Shown here: piece after piece, positions 17,699-21,680 of the stretch
How the letters are laid out: the number at the start of each line of letters is the position of its first letter
How positions within the stretch are numbered: position 1 is the stretch's first letter
From: Alphaproteobacteria bacterium
GTDB taxonomy: Bacteria > Pseudomonadota > Alphaproteobacteria > MPNO01
Reading direction: 5' to 3'
Assembly (NCBI GenBank): GCA_965205995.1
Contig: OZ242200.1
Span: 19,233 to 83,232, forward strand
Length of the DNA stretch: 64,000 nucleotides
Position numbers and translations under genes: made by a program
The notes under the pieces: model-generated
The model's input: only the letters and a program-made list of their open reading frames with translations
Told to the model about the DNA's origin: nothing
The model's database searches: none

Positions 17699-18538
17699 TC
17701 AGCCGAGCCCGGCCAGGAAGGCGGCCACCGCTGCCGCGGTCTCCCCCGGCTTCTCGATGAACGGGATGTGGCCGCCGCCCGGGATCTCGGCATAGGCGGC
17801 GCCGGGGATTGCCTCGGCGATGATCTTCGAGAACCTGGCCGGAATGAAATAGTCGTTGTCGCCGGTCAGCACCAGCGTCGGGCAGGCGATGGCGCGGATC
17901 TTCTCGGTCCACAGCGTCTCGTCCTCCTGGCCCGGCAGGCGGCACCCCCATGCCAGGATCGAATCGAGGAAGGCGGTGTAGAGGTCGGGCGAATTGGCGC
18001 GCACGTTCTCCTGGTTGGCCCGCATGATGGCGAGCCCTTCCTCGGTGTCCATGAATTCGCGGGTCATGGTCGAGAGCCCCATGAAGTCGGCGAGCTCCTC
18101 GCCCATGCCGATCTTGGCGATGATCTTCTTGCGCAGCGAGAAGTTGAGCTCCATCGCCCGGTCGAGCTCCGAGAACCCGCCGACCACGACGATCGAGCGC
18201 ACCAGCCCGGGATGGCGGACCGCCATCGCCTGCGCCGTCGAGCCGCCGAGCGAGGAGCCGAGCACGTCGACGCTCTCCCACCCCGCCGCGCGCGCGAGCG
18301 CGGCGAAGTCGTCGGCCCAGAGCTCGGAGCCGTAGCGCACCTCCGACGGGTCGTCCTTCCGCGATTGCCCGACGCCGCGCGGATCGACCAGCACGGTCAT
18401 GCAGCTCTCGCGCAGCAGAGGCTCGCCGAGCCGGTAGTAGCGGTGGTCCATGCCAAGCCCGGGCAAGAGGATCAGCGGATGGCCGCTGCCTTGCGCCTCG
18501 TACCAGATCTCGGTGCCGTTTACCGATGCTGTCGGCAT
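17699..18538 (-). CDS. alpha/beta hydrolase
   Basis: ORF trimmed to MPTASVNGTEIWYEAQG (GAGGAGG RBS); GSSLGG nucleophile elbow, HPLILLPGLGMD. Confidence 0.75.
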   Translation of the reverse strand: MPTASVNGTEIWYEAQGSGHPLILLPGLGMDHRYYRLGEPLLRESCMTVLVDPRGVGQSRKDDPSEVRYGSELWADDFAALARAAGWESVDVLGSSLGGSTAQAMAVRHPGLVRSIVVVGGFSELDRAMELNFSLRKKIIAKIGMGEELADFMGLSTMTREFMDTEEGLAIMRANQENVRANSPDLYTAFLDSILAWGCRLPGQEDETLWTEKIRAIACPTLVLTGDNDYFIPARFSKIIAEAIPGAAYAEIPGGGHIPFIEKPGETAAAVAAFLAGLG

Positions 18539-18549
18539 GGTTTTCCTCC

Positions 18550-20892
18550 TCAGCCCGCCGCCGCCCGCAGCGCCCGCCACACCCGGTGCGGGCTCGCCGG
18601 GAGCGGCAGCTCCGTCACCCCGCTTGCCGCGAGCGCATCGAGCACGGCGAGGATCACCGCCGGGTAGGCGCCCCCGTTGCCGGCCTCGCCGCAGCCCTTC
18701 ACGCCGAGCGGGTTGGTCGCGCAGGACACCGGGTGGGTGGCGAAGTCGACCGCCGCCATATGGTCCGCCCGCGGCATCGCATAGTCCATATAGGATCCGG
18801 TCACGAGCTGGCCGTCGTCGTCATAGACCGTGTTCTCCAGCAGCACCTGGCCGAGGCCCTGGGCGATGCCGCCATGCACCTGCCCCTCGACGATCGGCGG
18901 GTTGAGCACGGTGCCGAAATCGTCGACCACGGTGTAGCGCCCGATCGCGGTCTCGCCGGTGTCCGGGTCGATCTCCACCTCGCAGACATGGCAGCCGTTG
19001 GGAAAGCTGATCGGGCTCGTATTGTGCGAGCACTTCGCTCCCGGCCCGCCCGCCAGGTCGTCGGGCAGAGACGGGTTCTCCCGCGCTGCCGCGGCGAGGG
19101 TCATGATGTCCATCGACCGGTCGGTGCCGGCGACCCGGAACGCCCCGCCGGCGAACTCGATATCCTCGGTCGCGGCCTCCATCAGATGGCCGGCGATCGC
19201 CTTGCCGCGCTCGATCACCGCCTCGCTCGCCTCCAGGATGGCGCCGCTGGCGGCGATCGCCGAGCGCGACCCGCCGGATCCGCCGGCGCCCGCGCTCATC
19301 TCGTCGGAATCGTTCTGGATCAGGCGGATCCGCTCGAACGGCACGCCGAGCCGGTCGCTCAGCACCTGCGCGAACGGCGTCGCGTGGCCCATGCCGAAAT
19401 CGCAGGTGCCGGTGACCAGGGTCACCGTCCCGTCGGCCTCGAAGCGGATGTCGGCGAGCTCCGTGCCGGGCGCGGCGGTGGTCTCCAGATAGGGGGCGAT
19501 GCCGAGCCCGCGCAGCCTTCCCGCCGCCTCGCTGGCCCGGCGTCGTTCGGCGAAGCCGGCGACATCGGCGCGCGCCATCGCCTCGTCCATGATGGCTTCG
19601 AAATCGCCCGAATCGTAAACCAGGCCGACCGGAGTCTCGAACGGCATCTGGTCGGGCCGGACCAGGTTGCGCCGGCGCAGCTCGATCCGTTCGATCCCGG
19701 CCTCGGCGGCCGCCTTGTCGATCAGCAGTTCGAGGAAGTATTTCGATTCCGGCCGCCCGGCGCCGCGATAGGGGCCGGTCGGGACGGTGTTGGTGAAGAC
19801 GCATTTGGCGCCGTAGGAGAATAGCGGCGTCTTGTAGACGCTGATGATGTTGCGGCTCACCACCATGGTCACCGGCCAGGGGCCCATTGCGGTGAGGTAC
19901 GCGCCCATGTCGCCGAGCGCGTCGACCTTCAGCGCGAGGAAATTGCCGTCCGCGTCCATGGCCAGCGCGAGGTCGACCGTCATCGCCCTGCCCTGGTGGT
20001 CGGACAGGAAGCTTTCCGAGCGGTCGGCGCACCACTTGACTGGACGGCCGAGCTTGCGCGCCGCATACATCGCGCAGATCGCCTCCGAATAGGCCGCGCC
20101 CTTCATGCCGAAGGAGCCGCCGATGTCGTCGGAGACGACGCGGATCTTCTCCGGCGCGACGCCGAAGATCGCGTTGGCGAGCGTCGCCCGGTAGCCGGCG
20201 ACGCCCTGGCTGCCGACATGGAGGGTGAACTTTTCCGCCTCCGCGTCGTACTGCGCGAGCGCCGCGCGCGGCTCCATCGCGTTGACCACCATGCGGGTGT
20301 TGTCGAGCCGGATGCGGGTTACGTGGTGGGCGCCGGCGAGCGCCGCCTCGACCGCCTCCTCGTCGCCCATGTGGAAGTCGAGGAAGACATTGCCGGGGGA
20401 GGCGTCCCAGAGCTGCGGGGCGTCGGCCTGGAGCGCCCGTTCGACGGTCGCGGCGGCGGGCAAAAGCGAGACCTCGAACGGGATGGCCTCCGCCGCGTCG
20501 CGCGCCTGGGCGAGGGTCTCGGCGATCACCACCGCCACCGGATCGCCGACATGGCGCACCCGCCCGATCGAGAGCGCCGGGCGCGGCGGCACGTTGGGCG
20601 CCGATCCGTCGCGGTTCTTCATCGGCACCGGGCAGGGGATCTGGCCGATGCCGTCGGCTTCGAGGTCGGCGCCGGTATAGACCGCGAGCACGCCGGGCGC
20701 GCCGGCTACGGCGGCGGCGTCGAGCGCGGCGATCTCGCCATGCCCCGCGGTCGAGCGCAGGAACACGGCATAGGCCTGGCCCGGCGCGTTGTAGTCGTCG
20801 GTGTAGCGCCCGCCGCCGGAGAGCAGGCGCGGGTCCTCGGATCTCGGGACCGGCTGGCCGATCCCGAATTTGAGCACGCTGTCGTCGGGCAT
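18550..20892 (-). CDS. xanthine dehydrogenase family molybdopterin-binding subunit (CoxL/aldehyde oxidase large-subunit type), no adjacent small/medium subunits
   Basis: 780 aa after trimming 1092-aa ORF to MPDDSVLKFGIGQPVPRSEDPRLLSGGGRYTDDY; AYRGAGR-type loop (GPYRGAGRPE), GxxGQGxxT-like region, Mo-pterin binding C-terminus. Confidence 0.85.
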   Translation of the reverse strand: MPDDSVLKFGIGQPVPRSEDPRLLSGGGRYTDDYNAPGQAYAVFLRSTAGHGEIAALDAAAVAGAPGVLAVYTGADLEADGIGQIPCPVPMKNRDGSAPNVPPRPALSIGRVRHVGDPVAVVIAETLAQARDAAEAIPFEVSLLPAAATVERALQADAPQLWDASPGNVFLDFHMGDEEAVEAALAGAHHVTRIRLDNTRMVVNAMEPRAALAQYDAEAEKFTLHVGSQGVAGYRATLANAIFGVAPEKIRVVSDDIGGSFGMKGAAYSEAICAMYAARKLGRPVKWCADRSESFLSDHQGRAMTVDLALAMDADGNFLALKVDALGDMGAYLTAMGPWPVTMVVSRNIISVYKTPLFSYGAKCVFTNTVPTGPYRGAGRPESKYFLELLIDKAAAEAGIERIELRRRNLVRPDQMPFETPVGLVYDSGDFEAIMDEAMARADVAGFAERRRASEAAGRLRGLGIAPYLETTAAPGTELADIRFEADGTVTLVTGTCDFGMGHATPFAQVLSDRLGVPFERIRLIQNDSDEMSAGAGGSGGSRSAIAASGAILEASEAVIERGKAIAGHLMEAATEDIEFAGGAFRVAGTDRSMDIMTLAAAARENPSLPDDLAGGPGAKCSHNTSPISFPNGCHVCEVEIDPDTGETAIGRYTVVDDFGTVLNPPIVEGQVHGGIAQGLGQVLLENTVYDDDGQLVTGSYMDYAMPRADHMAAVDFATHPVSCATNPLGVKGCGEAGNGGAYPAVILAVLDALAASGVTELPLPASPHRVWRALRAAAG

Positions 20893-20969
20893 CGCAATCC
20901 ATTCGTCGTTATGTGGGGACGGGCGGCCCTCGGACCGCCCGGCGGGTGTCGTCTCGCGGGTGGGGCGCG

Positions 20970-21680
20970 CTATTCGGCGGCTGCTTCCTCGTTGCGGCGC
21001 GTCGAGGCTTCGAGCCGGGCGATCAGCTCGTCGGTCTCCTGCACGTCGCCGAAATGGAGGTAGAAATTGCCGAGCGCGGCGGCATGCTCCGAATCGCTCA
21101 TCGTCGCGCAGCCGTCCGAGACCATCAGCGAGCGGTAGTTGAGCATCATCGCGTCGCGCGCCGTCGATTCGCAGCACACGTTGGTCGCCACCCCGGTGAC
21201 GACGATGGTTTCGATCTCGTGGTCGCGCAGCACGTTCTCGATATTGGACGAGCCCTGGATGAAGGCGCTGAACCGCCGCTTGACGACGATCTCGTCCTCG
21301 TCGCGCACGTCGAGCGTGGGCCACAGCTGGAACGCCCGAGAATCGCGCTGCATGGCGTTCAGCCGTTGTTCGCGCTTCTCCGGCAGAAACCGCTCGTGGG
21401 TGACCGACCAGCTCTTGAGCGACTCCCTGCTCGCCAGGTTCTGCAACCAGATCACCTTGCCGCCGGCATTCCGCACCGCTTCGGCGAGGCGGTTCACGTT
21501 GGGCACGATCTCCTGCGCGACCGGCGCCGCGCCGAGCTGGCCCTCCTCCATGAAATAGATCTGCATGTCGACCGCCACCAGCGCCGTCTTCGCGCCGTCG
21601 AAGGTCTCGCAGGTATGCGGCCGGCCCTGGCGTTCGACCATCCGGTCGACATATTCCTTGGGCATCTCGAATGGGTGCAT
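20970..21680 (-). CDS. isochorismatase-family cysteine hydrolase (amidase; NicF/PicF-like by family)
   Basis: 236 aa; TALVAVDMQIYF start of isochorismatase fold, catalytic Cys region VTGVATNVCCEST; GGGAGG RBS. Confidence 0.8.
   Translation of the reverse strand: MHPFEMPKEYVDRMVERQGRPHTCETFDGAKTALVAVDMQIYFMEEGQLGAAPVAQEIVPNVNRLAEAVRNAGGKVIWLQNLASRESLKSWSVTHERFLPEKREQRLNAMQRDSRAFQLWPTLDVRDEDEIVVKRRFSAFIQGSSNIENVLRDHEIETIVVTGVATNVCCESTARDAMMLNYRSLMVSDGCATMSDSEHAAALGNFYLHFGDVQETDELIARLEASTRRNEEAAAE

What the first reader, a model, noticed from the sequence alone, without database searches (positions are those of the whole stretch)
17699..21680. Orphan molybdenum hydroxylase large subunit flanked by an isochorismatase-family amidase and an alpha/beta hydrolase
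An XDH-family large subunit of 780 aa with a YRGAGR loop stands alone with no 2Fe-2S or FAD subunit genes. It is bracketed by enzyme families that, in nicotinate and picolinate degradation, act as maleamate amidase (NicF/PicF) and N-formylmaleamate deformylase (NicD/PicE). This suggests a partial N-heterocycle catabolic module that must borrow small and medium subunits, possibly from the coxMSL-like set at 49.4-53.1 kb.
Basis: inference. Interest (0 to 1): 0.5.

Follow-up and report, generated by a model that had tools for sequence, protein, structure and literature searches.

The report
Orphan molybdenum hydroxylase subunit with amidase partner
A Defluviicoccus-like bacterium has an intact three-gene operon (amidase, molybdenum-hydroxylase catalytic subunit, hydrolase) with no electron-transfer subunit genes beside it. 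Its relatives sit inside nicotinate-breakdown clusters, so it is probably an accessory N-heterocycle module of unknown substrate: real and mildly interesting, not a new kind of system.

Summary
On the minus strand lie ISO (20970-21680, isochorismatase-family Cys hydrolase), L1 (18550-20892, 780 aa XDH-family large subunit with PYRGAGR loop) and ABH (17699-18538, alpha/beta hydrolase). Gaps are 77 and 11 bp. There is no 2Fe-2S or FAD gene nearby. All three are under purifying selection.

- ISO is not NicF-like: RutB-type hits score best, and NicF 3uao gives only E 9e-5.
- ABH is not a conserved neighbour. It is adjacent only where L1 is ≥88% identical.
- The conserved core is TRAP DctQM | ISO-L1.
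- At 60-67% identity, L1 and ISO sit inside the reductive (THON-type) nicotinate cluster with enamidase and 6-hydroxynicotinate reductase. They are absent from a canonical copy of that cluster, so they look accessory.

L1 belongs to a large clade of orphan large subunits (about 90 loci), sister to the form II coxSLM clade. It has no Fe-S motif of its own, so it needs S/M subunits in trans. In a relative's genome the ABH orthologue lies beside an M-S pair with no L gene. That pair is not orthologous to the window's M-S-L2 set at 49.4-53.0 kb. Borrowing from that set is therefore unsupported. The substrate remains unknown.

The parts
20970..21680 (-). ISO: isochorismatase-family cysteine hydrolase, 236 aa; first gene of the operon and the conserved partner of L1
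   Evidence: Pfam PF00857, E 1.6e-41. Asp (VDMQ, aa 37-40), Lys (VVKRRFSAF, aa 132-140) and Cys (TNVCCES, aa 166-172) motifs are present. Best PDB hits are RutB 8bkd (E 1e-16) and 3irv; 3uao/3ot4 gives only E 9e-5. Orthologues at 65-91% identity lie next to every L1 orthologue that has enough flank. dN/dS 0.12-0.26.
18550..20892 (-). L1: XDH-family molybdopterin-binding large subunit, 780 aa, with no adjacent 2Fe-2S or FAD subunit gene
   Evidence: Pfam Ald_Xan_dh_C + MoCoBD_1 + MoCoBD_2. PDB: CoxL 8uem E 2e-120, Qor 1t3q E 2e-116, KdhC 7dqx E 7e-115. 33% identical to KdhC. Active-site motifs are present. dN/dS 0.10-0.25. Falls in a monophyletic ISO-associated group inside an orphan clade.
19753..19770 (-). 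YRGAGR active-site loop (context PTGPYRGAGRPES)
   Evidence: This is the form II-type motif rather than the Cu-binding AYXCSFR of true CO dehydrogenase (motif definitions from PMC13203968).
17699..18538 (-). ABH: alpha/beta-fold hydrolase, 279 aa; starts 11 bp after the L1 stop; its position next to L1 is lineage-specific
   Evidence: Pfam Abhydrolase_1/6. GSSLGG nucleophile elbow and a C-terminal His motif. Only sub-threshold NCBIfam hits: PcaD 109 bits against a cut-off of 256, RutD 71 against 238. Adjacent to L1 only in Defluviicoccus-type loci L001, L002 and L170. The orthologue in the L081 genome lies next to an L-less M-S pair. dN/dS 0.11-0.13.
21681..21748 (-). Conserved 5' region of the operon, with a promoter-like -35/-10 (TTGCCG-17-TATAGT) at 21735-21707
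   Evidence: Consensus scan: 2 promoter-like sites in the scanned region against 0.3 expected. This stretch is retained in the 98% relative L170, up to the insertion breakpoint at 21748.
26535..28491 (+). TRAP transporter membrane genes DctQ (26535-27161) and DctM (27232-28491); ancestrally divergent from and adjacent to ISO; no DctP gene beside them
   Evidence: Pfam DctQ and DctM. The layout DctM-DctQ(-) | ISO-L1(+) is conserved in L001, L002, L081, L082, L083 and L170.
21749..26423 (+). Strain-specific 4.7 kb insertion (membrane-fusion gene with an in-frame TGA, plus AcrB-type RND pump) that separates ISO from DctQM in this window only
   Evidence: blastn against the collinear relative L170: L170 9111-9146 corresponds to window 26424-21748. 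Pfam HlyD_3 and ACR_tran. In-frame TGA at 22257-22259.
49432..53041 (-).
   Evidence: Pfam FAD_binding_5/CO_deh_flav_C, Fer2/Fer2_2 and MoCoBD domains. L2 is 25% identical to L1. The genes abut (M stop overlaps S start; 2 nt between S and L2). No operator shared with the ISO promoter was found.

Best explanation
ISO-L1-ABH is one transcription unit in a Defluviicoccus-type alphaproteobacterium.

L1 is the catalytic Mo-pterin subunit of a xanthine-dehydrogenase-family hydroxylase. It belongs to the CoxL/Qor/Kdh branch and is not a CO dehydrogenase. It most likely hydroxylates a carbon next to the ring nitrogen of a carboxylated pyridine-type compound (nicotinate or a close analogue or amide). 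Less likely, it oxidises a pathway aldehyde.

ISO is its evolutionarily fixed partner. It is a Cys-hydrolase that removes an amide or carbamoyl group from the substrate or product. The substrate probably enters through the TRAP DctQM system, which is ancestrally divergent from ISO.

ABH is a hydrolase whose place next to L1 is a recent arrangement. It is recurrently linked to Mo-hydroxylase genes elsewhere.

L1 carries no Fe-S motif, so electrons must leave through a 2Fe-2S subunit (and probably an FAD subunit) encoded elsewhere. The most plausible donor is a dedicated L-less M-S pair like the one found in a related genome, not the M-S-L2 operon 30 kb away.

Shown: gene structure, domain families, intact active site, purifying selection, the conserved ISO-L1-TRAP linkage, embedding of orthologues in THON-type nicotinate clusters, and the orphan clade.

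Inferred: substrate class, order of the reactions, and identity of the S/M partner.
For: - Operon anatomy: gaps of 77 and 11 bp, a promoter-like site upstream of ISO, a convergent gene downstream.
- Intact Moco and active-site motifs.
- dN/dS 0.10-0.25 for all three genes.
- All 12 L1 orthologue loci at 60% identity or more with usable flank carry ISO and/or enamidase nearby. The 75-98% tier shows DctM-DctQ | ISO-L1.
- Matching contig lengths between the L1 and ISO hit lists in at least 8 further assemblies.
- At 60-67% identity the surrounding cluster contains enamidase (2vun, E 8e-111), a protein 65% identical to a PGAP-annotated 6-hydroxynicotinate reductase, UPF0280, two AA_synth genes, and an S-L fusion plus M. 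This matches the proteobacterial nicotinate cluster described in PMC3511419.
- The canonical Sulfitobacter cluster lacks both L1 and ISO within the 31 kb examined, so in that comparison the two are present or absent together.
- The NJ tree places the ISO-associated L1 group as a monophyletic branch of an orphan clade sister to the S-L-M clade.
- L1 has no orphan-specific Cys cluster.
- An L-less M-S pair lies beside the ABH orthologue in the genome that carries L081.
- A characterised precedent for a split locus exists: pAO1 kdhC lies 4.3 kb from kdhAB on the opposite strand, next to an alpha/beta hydrolase.
Against: - The window has no enamidase, 6-hydroxynicotinate reductase, AA_synth or UPF0280 gene. 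The nicotinate link is therefore by orthology only, from relatives at 60-67% identity.
- ISO homologues at about 68% identity occur in unrelated contexts, so ISO alone is not diagnostic.
- No characterised enzyme is closer to L1 than 33-40% identity, so the substrate cannot be read from sequence.
- The L-less M-S pair was seen in one genome only. Its orthologue could not be sought in the window's genome.
- By similarity it is no closer to form II S/M proteins than S2/M2 are.
- TRAP DctQM has no DctP gene nearby.
Confidence: 0.5

Rival explanations
1. ISO is a NicF-like maleamate amidase and ABH a NicD-like N-formylmaleamate deformylase. Together with L1 they form a partial 2,5-dihydroxypyridine-type nicotinate/picolinate module that borrows S and M from the M-S-L2 operon at 49.4-53.0 kb.
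For: The superfamilies are right. Orthologues do associate with nicotinate catabolism. M2/S2 are the only S/M genes in the 64 kb.
Against: - ISO hits the NicF structure 3uao/3ot4 at only E 9e-5, against E 1e-16 for RutB.
- ABH is not a conserved neighbour.
- Sources name its homologues as esterase, aminoacrylate hydrolase or enol-lactonase.
- No NicC-, NicX- or maleate-isomerase-like gene was found in the window.
- The associated pathway is the enamidase/THON route.
- L2 is 25% identical to L1.
- M-S-L2 are packed as one unit.
- The L-less M-S pair in the relative is not orthologous to M2/S2.
Confidence: 0.1
2. A Rut-like or ureido-compound module. ISO (RutB-like) and ABH (RutD-like) process a ureido- or amino-acrylate-type ring-opening product. 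L1 oxidises a pyrimidine-like ring (for example a uracil dehydrogenase type) or the resulting aldehyde.
For: RutB is the best PDB and NCBIfam hit for ISO, and RutD is among the hits for ABH. JGI labels homologues as ureidoacrylate peracid hydrolase and aminoacrylate hydrolase. One ISO homologue sits with RidA and NMT1-type binding proteins. L1's top NCBIfam hit is an aldehyde (glyceraldehyde) dehydrogenase subunit, at a sub-threshold score.
Against: All Rut scores are far below the curated cut-offs (83 against 378; 71 against 238). No RutA, C, E, F or G, barbiturase or other pyrimidine gene appears in any L1 locus. The conserved neighbours are nicotinate-pathway genes.
Confidence: 0.12
3. L1 is a form II carbon-monoxide dehydrogenase large subunit, as automatic annotation of its homologues says.
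For: JGI names many homologues 'carbon-monoxide dehydrogenase large subunit'. L1 has a YRGAGR-type loop. The best PDB hit is a CoxL.
Against: There is no Cys in the active-site loop, so no Cu site. Form II enzymes have no established CO activity (PMC13203968). L1 is outside the S-L-M clade and lacks the coxSLM order and coxG, D, E, F neighbours. Its conserved neighbours are hydrolases and nicotinate genes.
Confidence: 0.03
4. L1 is a stranded, functionless remnant of a broken coxSLM operon.
For: It has no partner genes in cis.
Against: dN/dS is 0.10-0.25. All catalytic motifs are intact. The orphan state is shared by a clade of about 90 loci with many lineages. The ISO-L1 order is conserved from 60% to 98% identity.
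Confidence: 0.03

Closest known systems
6-hydroxypseudooxynicotine (ketone) dehydrogenase KdhABC of Paenarthrobacter nicotinovorans pAO1
   Same: Same XDH-family branch (PDB 7dqx, E 7e-115; 33% identity) and the GGSFG variant motif. The large-subunit gene kdhC is not in one operon with kdhA (FAD) and kdhB (Fe-S). It lies 4.3 kb away on the other strand and sits next to an alpha/beta-fold hydrolase. This is a characterised precedent for a split locus in N-heterocycle catabolism.
   Different: In pAO1 the M-S pair is still only 4 kb away. In the window no cognate pair lies within about 30 kb, and none within 10 kb in the near-identical relative. ABH matches the pAO1 hydrolase only at the nucleophile elbow (E 2e-5). 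There is no ISO partner in pAO1. Identity is too low to transfer the substrate.
Form II CoxSLM ('putative CO dehydrogenase' of unknown function)
   Same: YRGAGR-type active-site loop. These are the closest non-orphan relatives (43-48% identity) and form the sister clade in the tree.
   Different: Form II is defined by the coxS-L-M order, often with coxG. L1 and its whole clade lack S and M in cis. They also lack an insertion of about 8 residues after aa 477 and differ at about 10 otherwise invariant positions. The motif reads PYRGAGR, not AYRGAGR.
Reductive (THON-type) nicotinate catabolic cluster of Eubacterium barkeri, Azorhizobium and Bradyrhizobiaceae
   Same: L1 and ISO orthologues at 60-67% identity are embedded among enamidase, 6-hydroxynicotinate reductase, UPF0280, two AA_synth genes and an S-L fusion plus FAD subunit. 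The cluster is described in PMC3511419.
   Different: L1 and ISO are not part of the described core. The Sulfitobacter plasmid copy has neither. The window has none of the core genes.
Quinoline 2-oxidoreductase (Qor, PDB 1t3q)
   Same: Comparable similarity (E 2e-116). The Gln/Glu active site and the YRG(V/A)G loop type are conserved.
   Different: Identity is in the 30-40% range. Qor is encoded together with its M and S subunits (my own knowledge, not checked here). It has no ISO partner.
RutB/RutD of the Rut pyrimidine pathway, and NicF/NicD of aerobic nicotinate degradation
   Same: The same two superfamilies occur side by side with a ring-oxidising enzyme. RutB is the top structural hit for ISO.
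   Different: Scores are far below the equivalog cut-offs. The NicF structure is hit only at E 9e-5. No other Rut or Nic genes are present.

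Membership tests
Xanthine dehydrogenase / Mo-hydroxylase family, large subunit | Ald_Xan_dh_C hammerhead domain plus the two Moco-binding domains | tested here: met
   Pfam PF01315 (70 bits), PF02738 (226 bits), PF20256 (259 bits), all above the gathering scores.
Xanthine dehydrogenase / Mo-hydroxylase family, large subunit | Active-site Gln and catalytic Glu, plus the GGxFG, GSRS and VEGQxHGG cofactor motifs | tested here: met
   GSQG aa 227-230, GGSFGMKG aa 258-265, GSRS aa 541-544, VEGQVHGG aa 668-675, KGCGEAG aa 732-738. These align to the same motifs in CoxL, Qor and KdhC.
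Xanthine dehydrogenase / Mo-hydroxylase family, large subunit | Works with a 2x[2Fe-2S] subunit or domain (and usually an FAD subunit), normally encoded in the same operon | tested here: not met
   In cis there is no S or M within 28 kb in the window and none within 10 kb in L170. L1 has no Cys cluster of its own. Whether a partner exists in trans cannot be tested with these tools.
Form I aerobic CO dehydrogenase (CoxL) | AYXCSFR loop with the Cu-binding Cys; coxMSL order | tested here: not met
   The loop is PYRGAGR with no Cys. NCBIfam TIGR02416 gives 418 bits against a cut-off of 991. L1 is an orphan.
Form II CoxL | AYRGAGR loop | tested here: met
   YRGAGR is present; the preceding residue is Pro rather than Ala. 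Motif definition from PMC13203968.
Form II CoxL | coxS-coxL-coxM gene order and membership of the S-L-M clade | tested here: not met
   All homologues at 48% identity or less that carry S and M form a separate clade. L1 lies in the orphan sister clade.
NicF maleamate amidohydrolase | Isochorismatase fold with the Asp-Lys-Cys triad | tested here: met
   PF00857. The motifs VDMQ, KRRFSAF and TNVCC are present.
NicF maleamate amidohydrolase | Closest similarity to characterised NicF, and co-occurrence with NicC, NicX and NicD | tested here: not met
   3uao/3ot4 gives E 9e-5 and 25 bits, ranking about 41st of 44 PDB hits. That these entries are NicF is my own recollection. No NicC- or NicX-type Pfam family was found in the window.
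NicD / PicE N-formylmaleamate deformylase | Alpha/beta hydrolase with a Ser nucleophile | tested here: met
   PF00561 and PF12697. GSSLGG elbow.
NicD / PicE N-formylmaleamate deformylase | Specific sequence relationship to NicD or PicE | not tested
   No reference NicD or PicE sequence could be obtained with these tools. Indirectly, no source names any of 120 close homologues a deformylase, and ABH is not a conserved neighbour of L1.
RutB / RutD (pyrimidine utilisation) | Score above the NCBIfam equivalog cut-off | tested here: not met
   TIGR03614 RutB gives 82.6 bits against 378. TIGR03611 RutD gives 70.6 bits against 238.5.
Nicotinamidase / pyrazinamidase (PncA) | Score above the NCBIfam cut-off | tested here: not met
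   PRK11609 gives 47 bits against 174.
THON-type nicotinate catabolic cluster | Enamidase, 6-hydroxynicotinate reductase and nicotinate dehydrogenase genes in the same locus | tested here: not met
   Not met in the window: tblastn finds none of them. Met in orthologous loci L083-L086 and L089-L091.

The most novel reading that the evidence does not exclude
The orphan clade to which L1 belongs (about 90 loci here, sometimes two or three L genes in tandem) may be a 'plug-in' system. In it, many substrate-specific Mo-hydroxylase catalytic subunits would share one or a few L-less M-S electron-transfer pairs encoded elsewhere, such as the pair next to the ABH orthologue in L172. ISO-L1 would be one such plug-in, adding an amide or analogue entry branch to the reductive nicotinate pathway. 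An even less conventional variant is that some members use a non-CoxS partner, for example the PF01613 flavin-reductase-like gene immediately downstream of L1 in marine relatives.
Probability: 0.25. Interest if true: 0.6.

Novelty: new member of a known kind. Interest (0 to 1): 0.38.

Why it matters
CoxL-like genes are very numerous in environmental genomes: 119,560 in 26,690 ocean MAGs (PMC13203968). Pipelines routinely call them CO dehydrogenase. This analysis shows that a large, coherent clade of them lacks Fe-S and FAD partners in cis and has nothing to do with CO.

One sub-group has a fixed amidase partner and a traceable link to the little-studied aerobic version of the reductive nicotinate pathway. 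That gives a concrete, testable handle on two open points. The first is what form II-like CoxL proteins do. The second is how a catalytic subunit finds its electron-transfer subunits when they are encoded elsewhere.

It also bears on the metabolism of Defluviicoccus, which I recall (not checked here) as a wastewater glycogen-accumulating organism. On present evidence, however, this is an uncharacterised member of a well-known enzyme family, not a new mechanism.

Tried and rejected
- Shared operator between the ISO promoter and the region upstream of M2. Only a 12-mer overlapping the Shine-Dalgarno sequence is shared, so there is no evidence of co-regulation.
- An Fe-S site intrinsic to L1. No orphan-specific conserved Cys cluster was found.
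- Pairing by similarity. The L-less M-S pair of L172 is no closer to form II S/M proteins than S2/M2 are, so this is uninformative.
- Plasmid collection. No L1 orthologue above 48% identity, so no annotated cultured-strain context for ISO-L1.
- ABH against the pAO1 2,6-dihydroxypseudooxynicotine hydrolase. Only the nucleophile elbow matches.
- Literature on orphan coxL, on isochorismatase combined with XDH clusters, and on PF06684. Nothing bearing on this pair was found. Alhapel 2006 is not held.
- Rfam and tRNA scans of the window. Nothing found.
- P0061, a 985-aa homologue, was checked as a possible fusion. It is a mis-called start.
- A first scan for L-less S genes failed because the S domain of the fusion query counted as an L hit. 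This was fixed, and L172 is the only case among the 68 S genes held.
- The orthologue of the L172 M-S pair could not be sought in the window's genome.

Full report
**1. Observation**

The window has 65-74% G+C. The codon-position GC profile and an ORF filter resolve three consecutive minus-strand genes exactly within 17699-21680.

- ISO, 20970-21680, 236 aa.
- L1, 18550-20892, 780 aa.
- ABH, 17699-18538, 279 aa.

Pfam assigns Isochorismatase to ISO, Ald_Xan_dh_C + MoCoBD_1 + MoCoBD_2 to L1, and Abhydrolase_1/6 to ABH. The YRGAGR loop is at aa 375-380.

The intergenic gaps are 77 bp (ISO-L1) and 11 bp (L1-ABH). A promoter-like -35/-10 pair lies at 21735-21707, upstream of ISO. A Sel1-repeat gene converges on the 3' end. 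The three genes therefore form a self-contained operon.

No gene for a 2Fe-2S or FAD subunit flanks it. The only such genes in the 64 kb are in the M-S-L2 operon at 49432-53041.

**2. L1 is intact and is not a CO dehydrogenase**

L1 aligns end to end with three solved large subunits:
- CoxL, PDB 8uem, E 2e-120.
- Quinoline 2-oxidoreductase, 1t3q, E 2e-116.
- 6-hydroxypseudooxynicotine dehydrogenase KdhC, 7dqx, E 7e-115.

The active-site Gln (GSQG), the GGSFG and GSRS motifs, VEGQVHGG and the catalytic Glu (KGCGEAG) are all present. The loop PYRGAGRPES has no cysteine, so the Cu site of true CO dehydrogenase (AYXCSFR) is absent. It is the form II type, whose function is unknown (PMC13203968). 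All NCBIfam equivalog scores are far below their cut-offs.

dN/dS against four orthologues is 0.10-0.25 for L1, 0.12-0.26 for ISO and 0.11-0.13 for ABH. The pseudogene refutation condition is not met.

**3. Source organism**

Exact and near-exact copies of the three proteins are named as Defluviicoccus sp. proteins with consecutive accessions: MCY4549704, 05 and 06 for ABH, L and ISO.

A relative with 98% L1 identity (locus L170) is collinear with the window at 96-98% nucleotide identity. The one exception is that window 21749-26423 is missing from it. That 4.7 kb segment carries a membrane-fusion gene with an in-frame TGA at 22257-22259 and an AcrB-type pump. The ancestral layout is therefore DctM-DctQ(-) | ISO-L1-ABH(+).

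**4. What is conserved around L1**

I fetched 160 loci from genomes and metagenomes and 9 loci by exact protein look-up. I compared them with tblastn and a neighbour-joining tree. Three tiers appear.

- (a) Homologues at 43-48% identity have the canonical S-L-M order, often with CoxG. This is the form II clade.
- (b) About 75 homologues at 49-57% identity have no S or M within the available flank (up to 8 kb) and sit in unrelated contexts. Some basal orphan lineages at 47-49% identity carry two or three L genes in tandem.
- (c) The 60-98% group containing L1 is monophyletic. It is nested in the orphan clade, and every locus with enough flank has ISO and/or enamidase beside L1.

Within tier (c), the 75-98% loci (window, L170, L001, L002, L081, L082) show DctM-DctQ | ISO-L1. 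ABH follows L1 only in the Defluviicoccus-type loci, where L1 is ≥88% identical (hit lists extend this to ABH 82% / L1 85% on one shared contig). In L081 and L082 a different gene follows.

Matching contig lengths between the L1 and ISO hit lists show co-residence in at least eight further assemblies. So ISO, not ABH, is the fixed partner of L1.

**5. Link to nicotinate catabolism**

In the 60-67% loci (L083-L086, L089-L091, L041) ISO and L1 are interleaved with a conserved gene set:
- a 396-aa amidohydrolase;
- two PF06684 (AA_synth) genes;
- an ApbE-like UPF0280 gene;
- a Cys-rich protein of about 500 aa;
- either a 916-aa Fer2-MoCoBD fusion plus an FAD subunit, or a POR-type oxidoreductase.

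The amidohydrolase matches enamidase of Eubacterium barkeri (PDB 2vun) at E 8e-111. The same gene set on Sulfitobacter mediterraneus plasmid P3 is annotated by PGAP with '6-hydroxynicotinate reductase'. That protein is 65% identical to the ~500-aa protein, and the other members are 49-74% identical.

This is the proteobacterial version of the reductive nicotinate pathway: nicotinate, then 6-hydroxynicotinate, then 1,4,5,6-tetrahydro-6-oxonicotinate (THON), then ring opening. It is described for Azorhizobium and Bradyrhizobiaceae in PMC3511419. The further route via glutarate is from that paper and from my recollection of Kitts et al. 1992.

The Sulfitobacter cluster has neither L1 nor ISO within 31 kb. 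L1 and ISO are therefore an accessory pair, present or absent together in that comparison, and not part of the core. In L084, L086 and L090 the S-L fusion is missing, and L1 is the only Mo enzyme in the cluster.

The window itself has none of the core genes. For this genome the nicotinate link is inherited by orthology and is not shown directly.

**6. Testing the NicF/NicD reading**

- ISO's best structural relatives are RutB (E 1e-16), 3irv and YecD. The entry I recall as NicF (3uao/3ot4) scores E 9e-5.
- RutB, biuret hydrolase and nicotinamidase models all fall far below their cut-offs.
- ISO homologues at about 68% identity also occur next to MOSC plus TAXI-TRAP genes, or next to Rieske, RidA and NMT1 genes.
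- ABH's best hits are esterases, meta-cleavage-product hydrolases and PcaD or RutD at sub-threshold scores.
- Sources name 120 close ABH homologues as esterase, aminoacrylate hydrolase or enol-lactonase, and never as a deformylase.
- No NicC-, NicX- or maleate-isomerase-type family is present among the window genes scanned.

The maleamate-branch assignment is therefore not supported. The broader idea of an N-heterocycle module is.

**7. Where the electrons go**

Every characterised member of this family passes electrons from Mo through two [2Fe-2S] clusters (established knowledge of the family). L1 has no conserved Cys cluster that could replace them. A trans partner is therefore required.

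The M-S-L2 operon in the window belongs to a different subfamily. L2 is 25% identical to L1, and its nearest models are 4-hydroxybenzoyl-CoA reductase and XdhA. Its genes abut as one unit. I found no operator shared with the ISO promoter.

The most telling result came from the ABH family. In the same 3.87 Mb contig that carries L081 (L1 77%, ISO 81%), the ABH orthologue (76%) lies about 750 kb away. It sits next to an FAD-subunit gene and a 2Fe-2S-subunit gene, and there is no L gene anywhere in the 16.8 kb locus (L172). That S is 48% identical to S2 and that M is 28% identical to M2, so the pair is not the counterpart of the window's M2-S2.

A third ABH homologue (68%) lies with DctPQM, an aldehyde dehydrogenase and an IorA/IorB-type S+L pair. 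Two of three contexts link ABH to L or M-S genes of the L1 system, and the third links it to a different Mo-hydroxylase (IorAB type). The L172 locus also shows that L-less M-S pairs exist in this lineage. This is one observation, and I could not look for the pair in the window's own genome.

A characterised precedent for a split locus is pAO1. There kdhC lies 4.3 kb from kdhA-kdhB on the opposite strand and next to an alpha/beta hydrolase. L1 is only 33% identical to KdhC, and ABH is unrelated to that hydrolase beyond the fold.

**8. Verdict**

The finding is real, and the genes are functional by every sequence test. The best reading has four parts.
- It is an accessory two-enzyme core (amide or carbamoyl hydrolase plus Mo-hydroxylase catalytic subunit) for a nicotinate-family or related carboxylated N-heterocycle.
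- The substrate is imported by the adjoining TRAP system.
- A hydrolase has been recruited to the operon in this lineage.
- Fe-S and FAD subunits are supplied in trans, more probably by a dedicated L-less pair than by M2-S2.

The substrate, the order of the reactions and the partner identity are inferred, not shown.

L1 is a new, uncharacterised member of a known family. The size of the orphan clade and the L-less M-S pair give it moderate interest.

Noticed in passing
window 21749-26423: A 4.7 kb strain-specific insertion between ISO and DctQ, absent from the 96-98% identical relative L170. It carries an RND membrane-fusion gene (21819-23192) interrupted by a single in-frame TGA at 22257-22259, and an AcrB-type pump (23059-26334). 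The TGA could be a pseudogene or a sequencing error.
   Followed up: partly
window 26535-28491; also L170, L001, L002, L081-L083: TRAP transporter DctQ and DctM genes with no DctP solute-binding gene beside them. This arrangement is conserved across relatives from 66% to 98% L1 identity.
   Followed up: partly
L172 5384-6735 (same 3.87 Mb contig as L081): An FAD-subunit gene and a 2Fe-2S-subunit gene of the XDH family with no large-subunit gene in the 16.8 kb locus. They lie next to the orthologue of the window's ABH. This is the only L-less pair among the 68 S genes held.
   Followed up: partly
L031, L136, L139 (also L016, L034, L030): Two or three orphan CoxL-like large-subunit genes in tandem without any S or M gene.
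   Followed up: no
L084 10361-11083; L089, L090, L091, L086: In marine and other 60-64% orthologues, L1 is followed by a PF01613 flavin-reductase-like gene: about 15 bp after the L1 stop in L084, and after an intervening cupin gene in L086. In three of these clusters L1 is the only Mo enzyme, because the S-L fusion is absent.
   Followed up: no
window 28676-32069: A tungsten/molybdenum-type aldehyde:ferredoxin oxidoreductase (AFOR_N/AFOR_C, 573 aa) followed by an AMP-forming ligase. The pair is conserved next to the TRAP genes in Defluviicoccus-type relatives (L170, L001, L081).
   Followed up: no
window 43769-53041: The M-S-L2 operon lies near a UbiD-family decarboxylase (43769-45136), a luciferase-like monooxygenase (45418-46755) and an Amidohydro_2 gene (46752-47798). 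This looks like a separate aromatic or heteroaromatic catabolic island.
   Followed up: no
window 61242-62819: A CoxG-family (SRPBCC) gene at 62367-62819 sits next to two short genes carrying the N- and C-terminal TPP-enzyme domains separately (61837-62370 and 61242-61850). It is far from both large-subunit genes.
   Followed up: no
window 5012-10677: Another catabolic-looking run on the plus strand: Rieske/VanA_C oxygenase, cupin, a second alpha/beta hydrolase (28% identical to ABH), SDR, TPP enzyme and an aspartate-dehydrogenase-like gene.
   Followed up: no
window 12832-16002: Three EamA-family transporter genes in tandem on the minus strand.
   Followed up: no
L170 13227-15381 versus window 16549-17565: The near-identical relative has two Sel1-repeat genes in tandem (the second copy about 85% identical at DNA level) where the window has one.
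   Followed up: no
hit lists: Automatic annotation calls L1 orthologues 'carbon-monoxide dehydrogenase large subunit', ISO orthologues 'ureidoacrylate peracid hydrolase', and ABH orthologues 'pimeloyl-ACP methyl ester carboxylesterase' or 'aminoacrylate hydrolase'. None of these labels passes a curated threshold here.
   Followed up: yes
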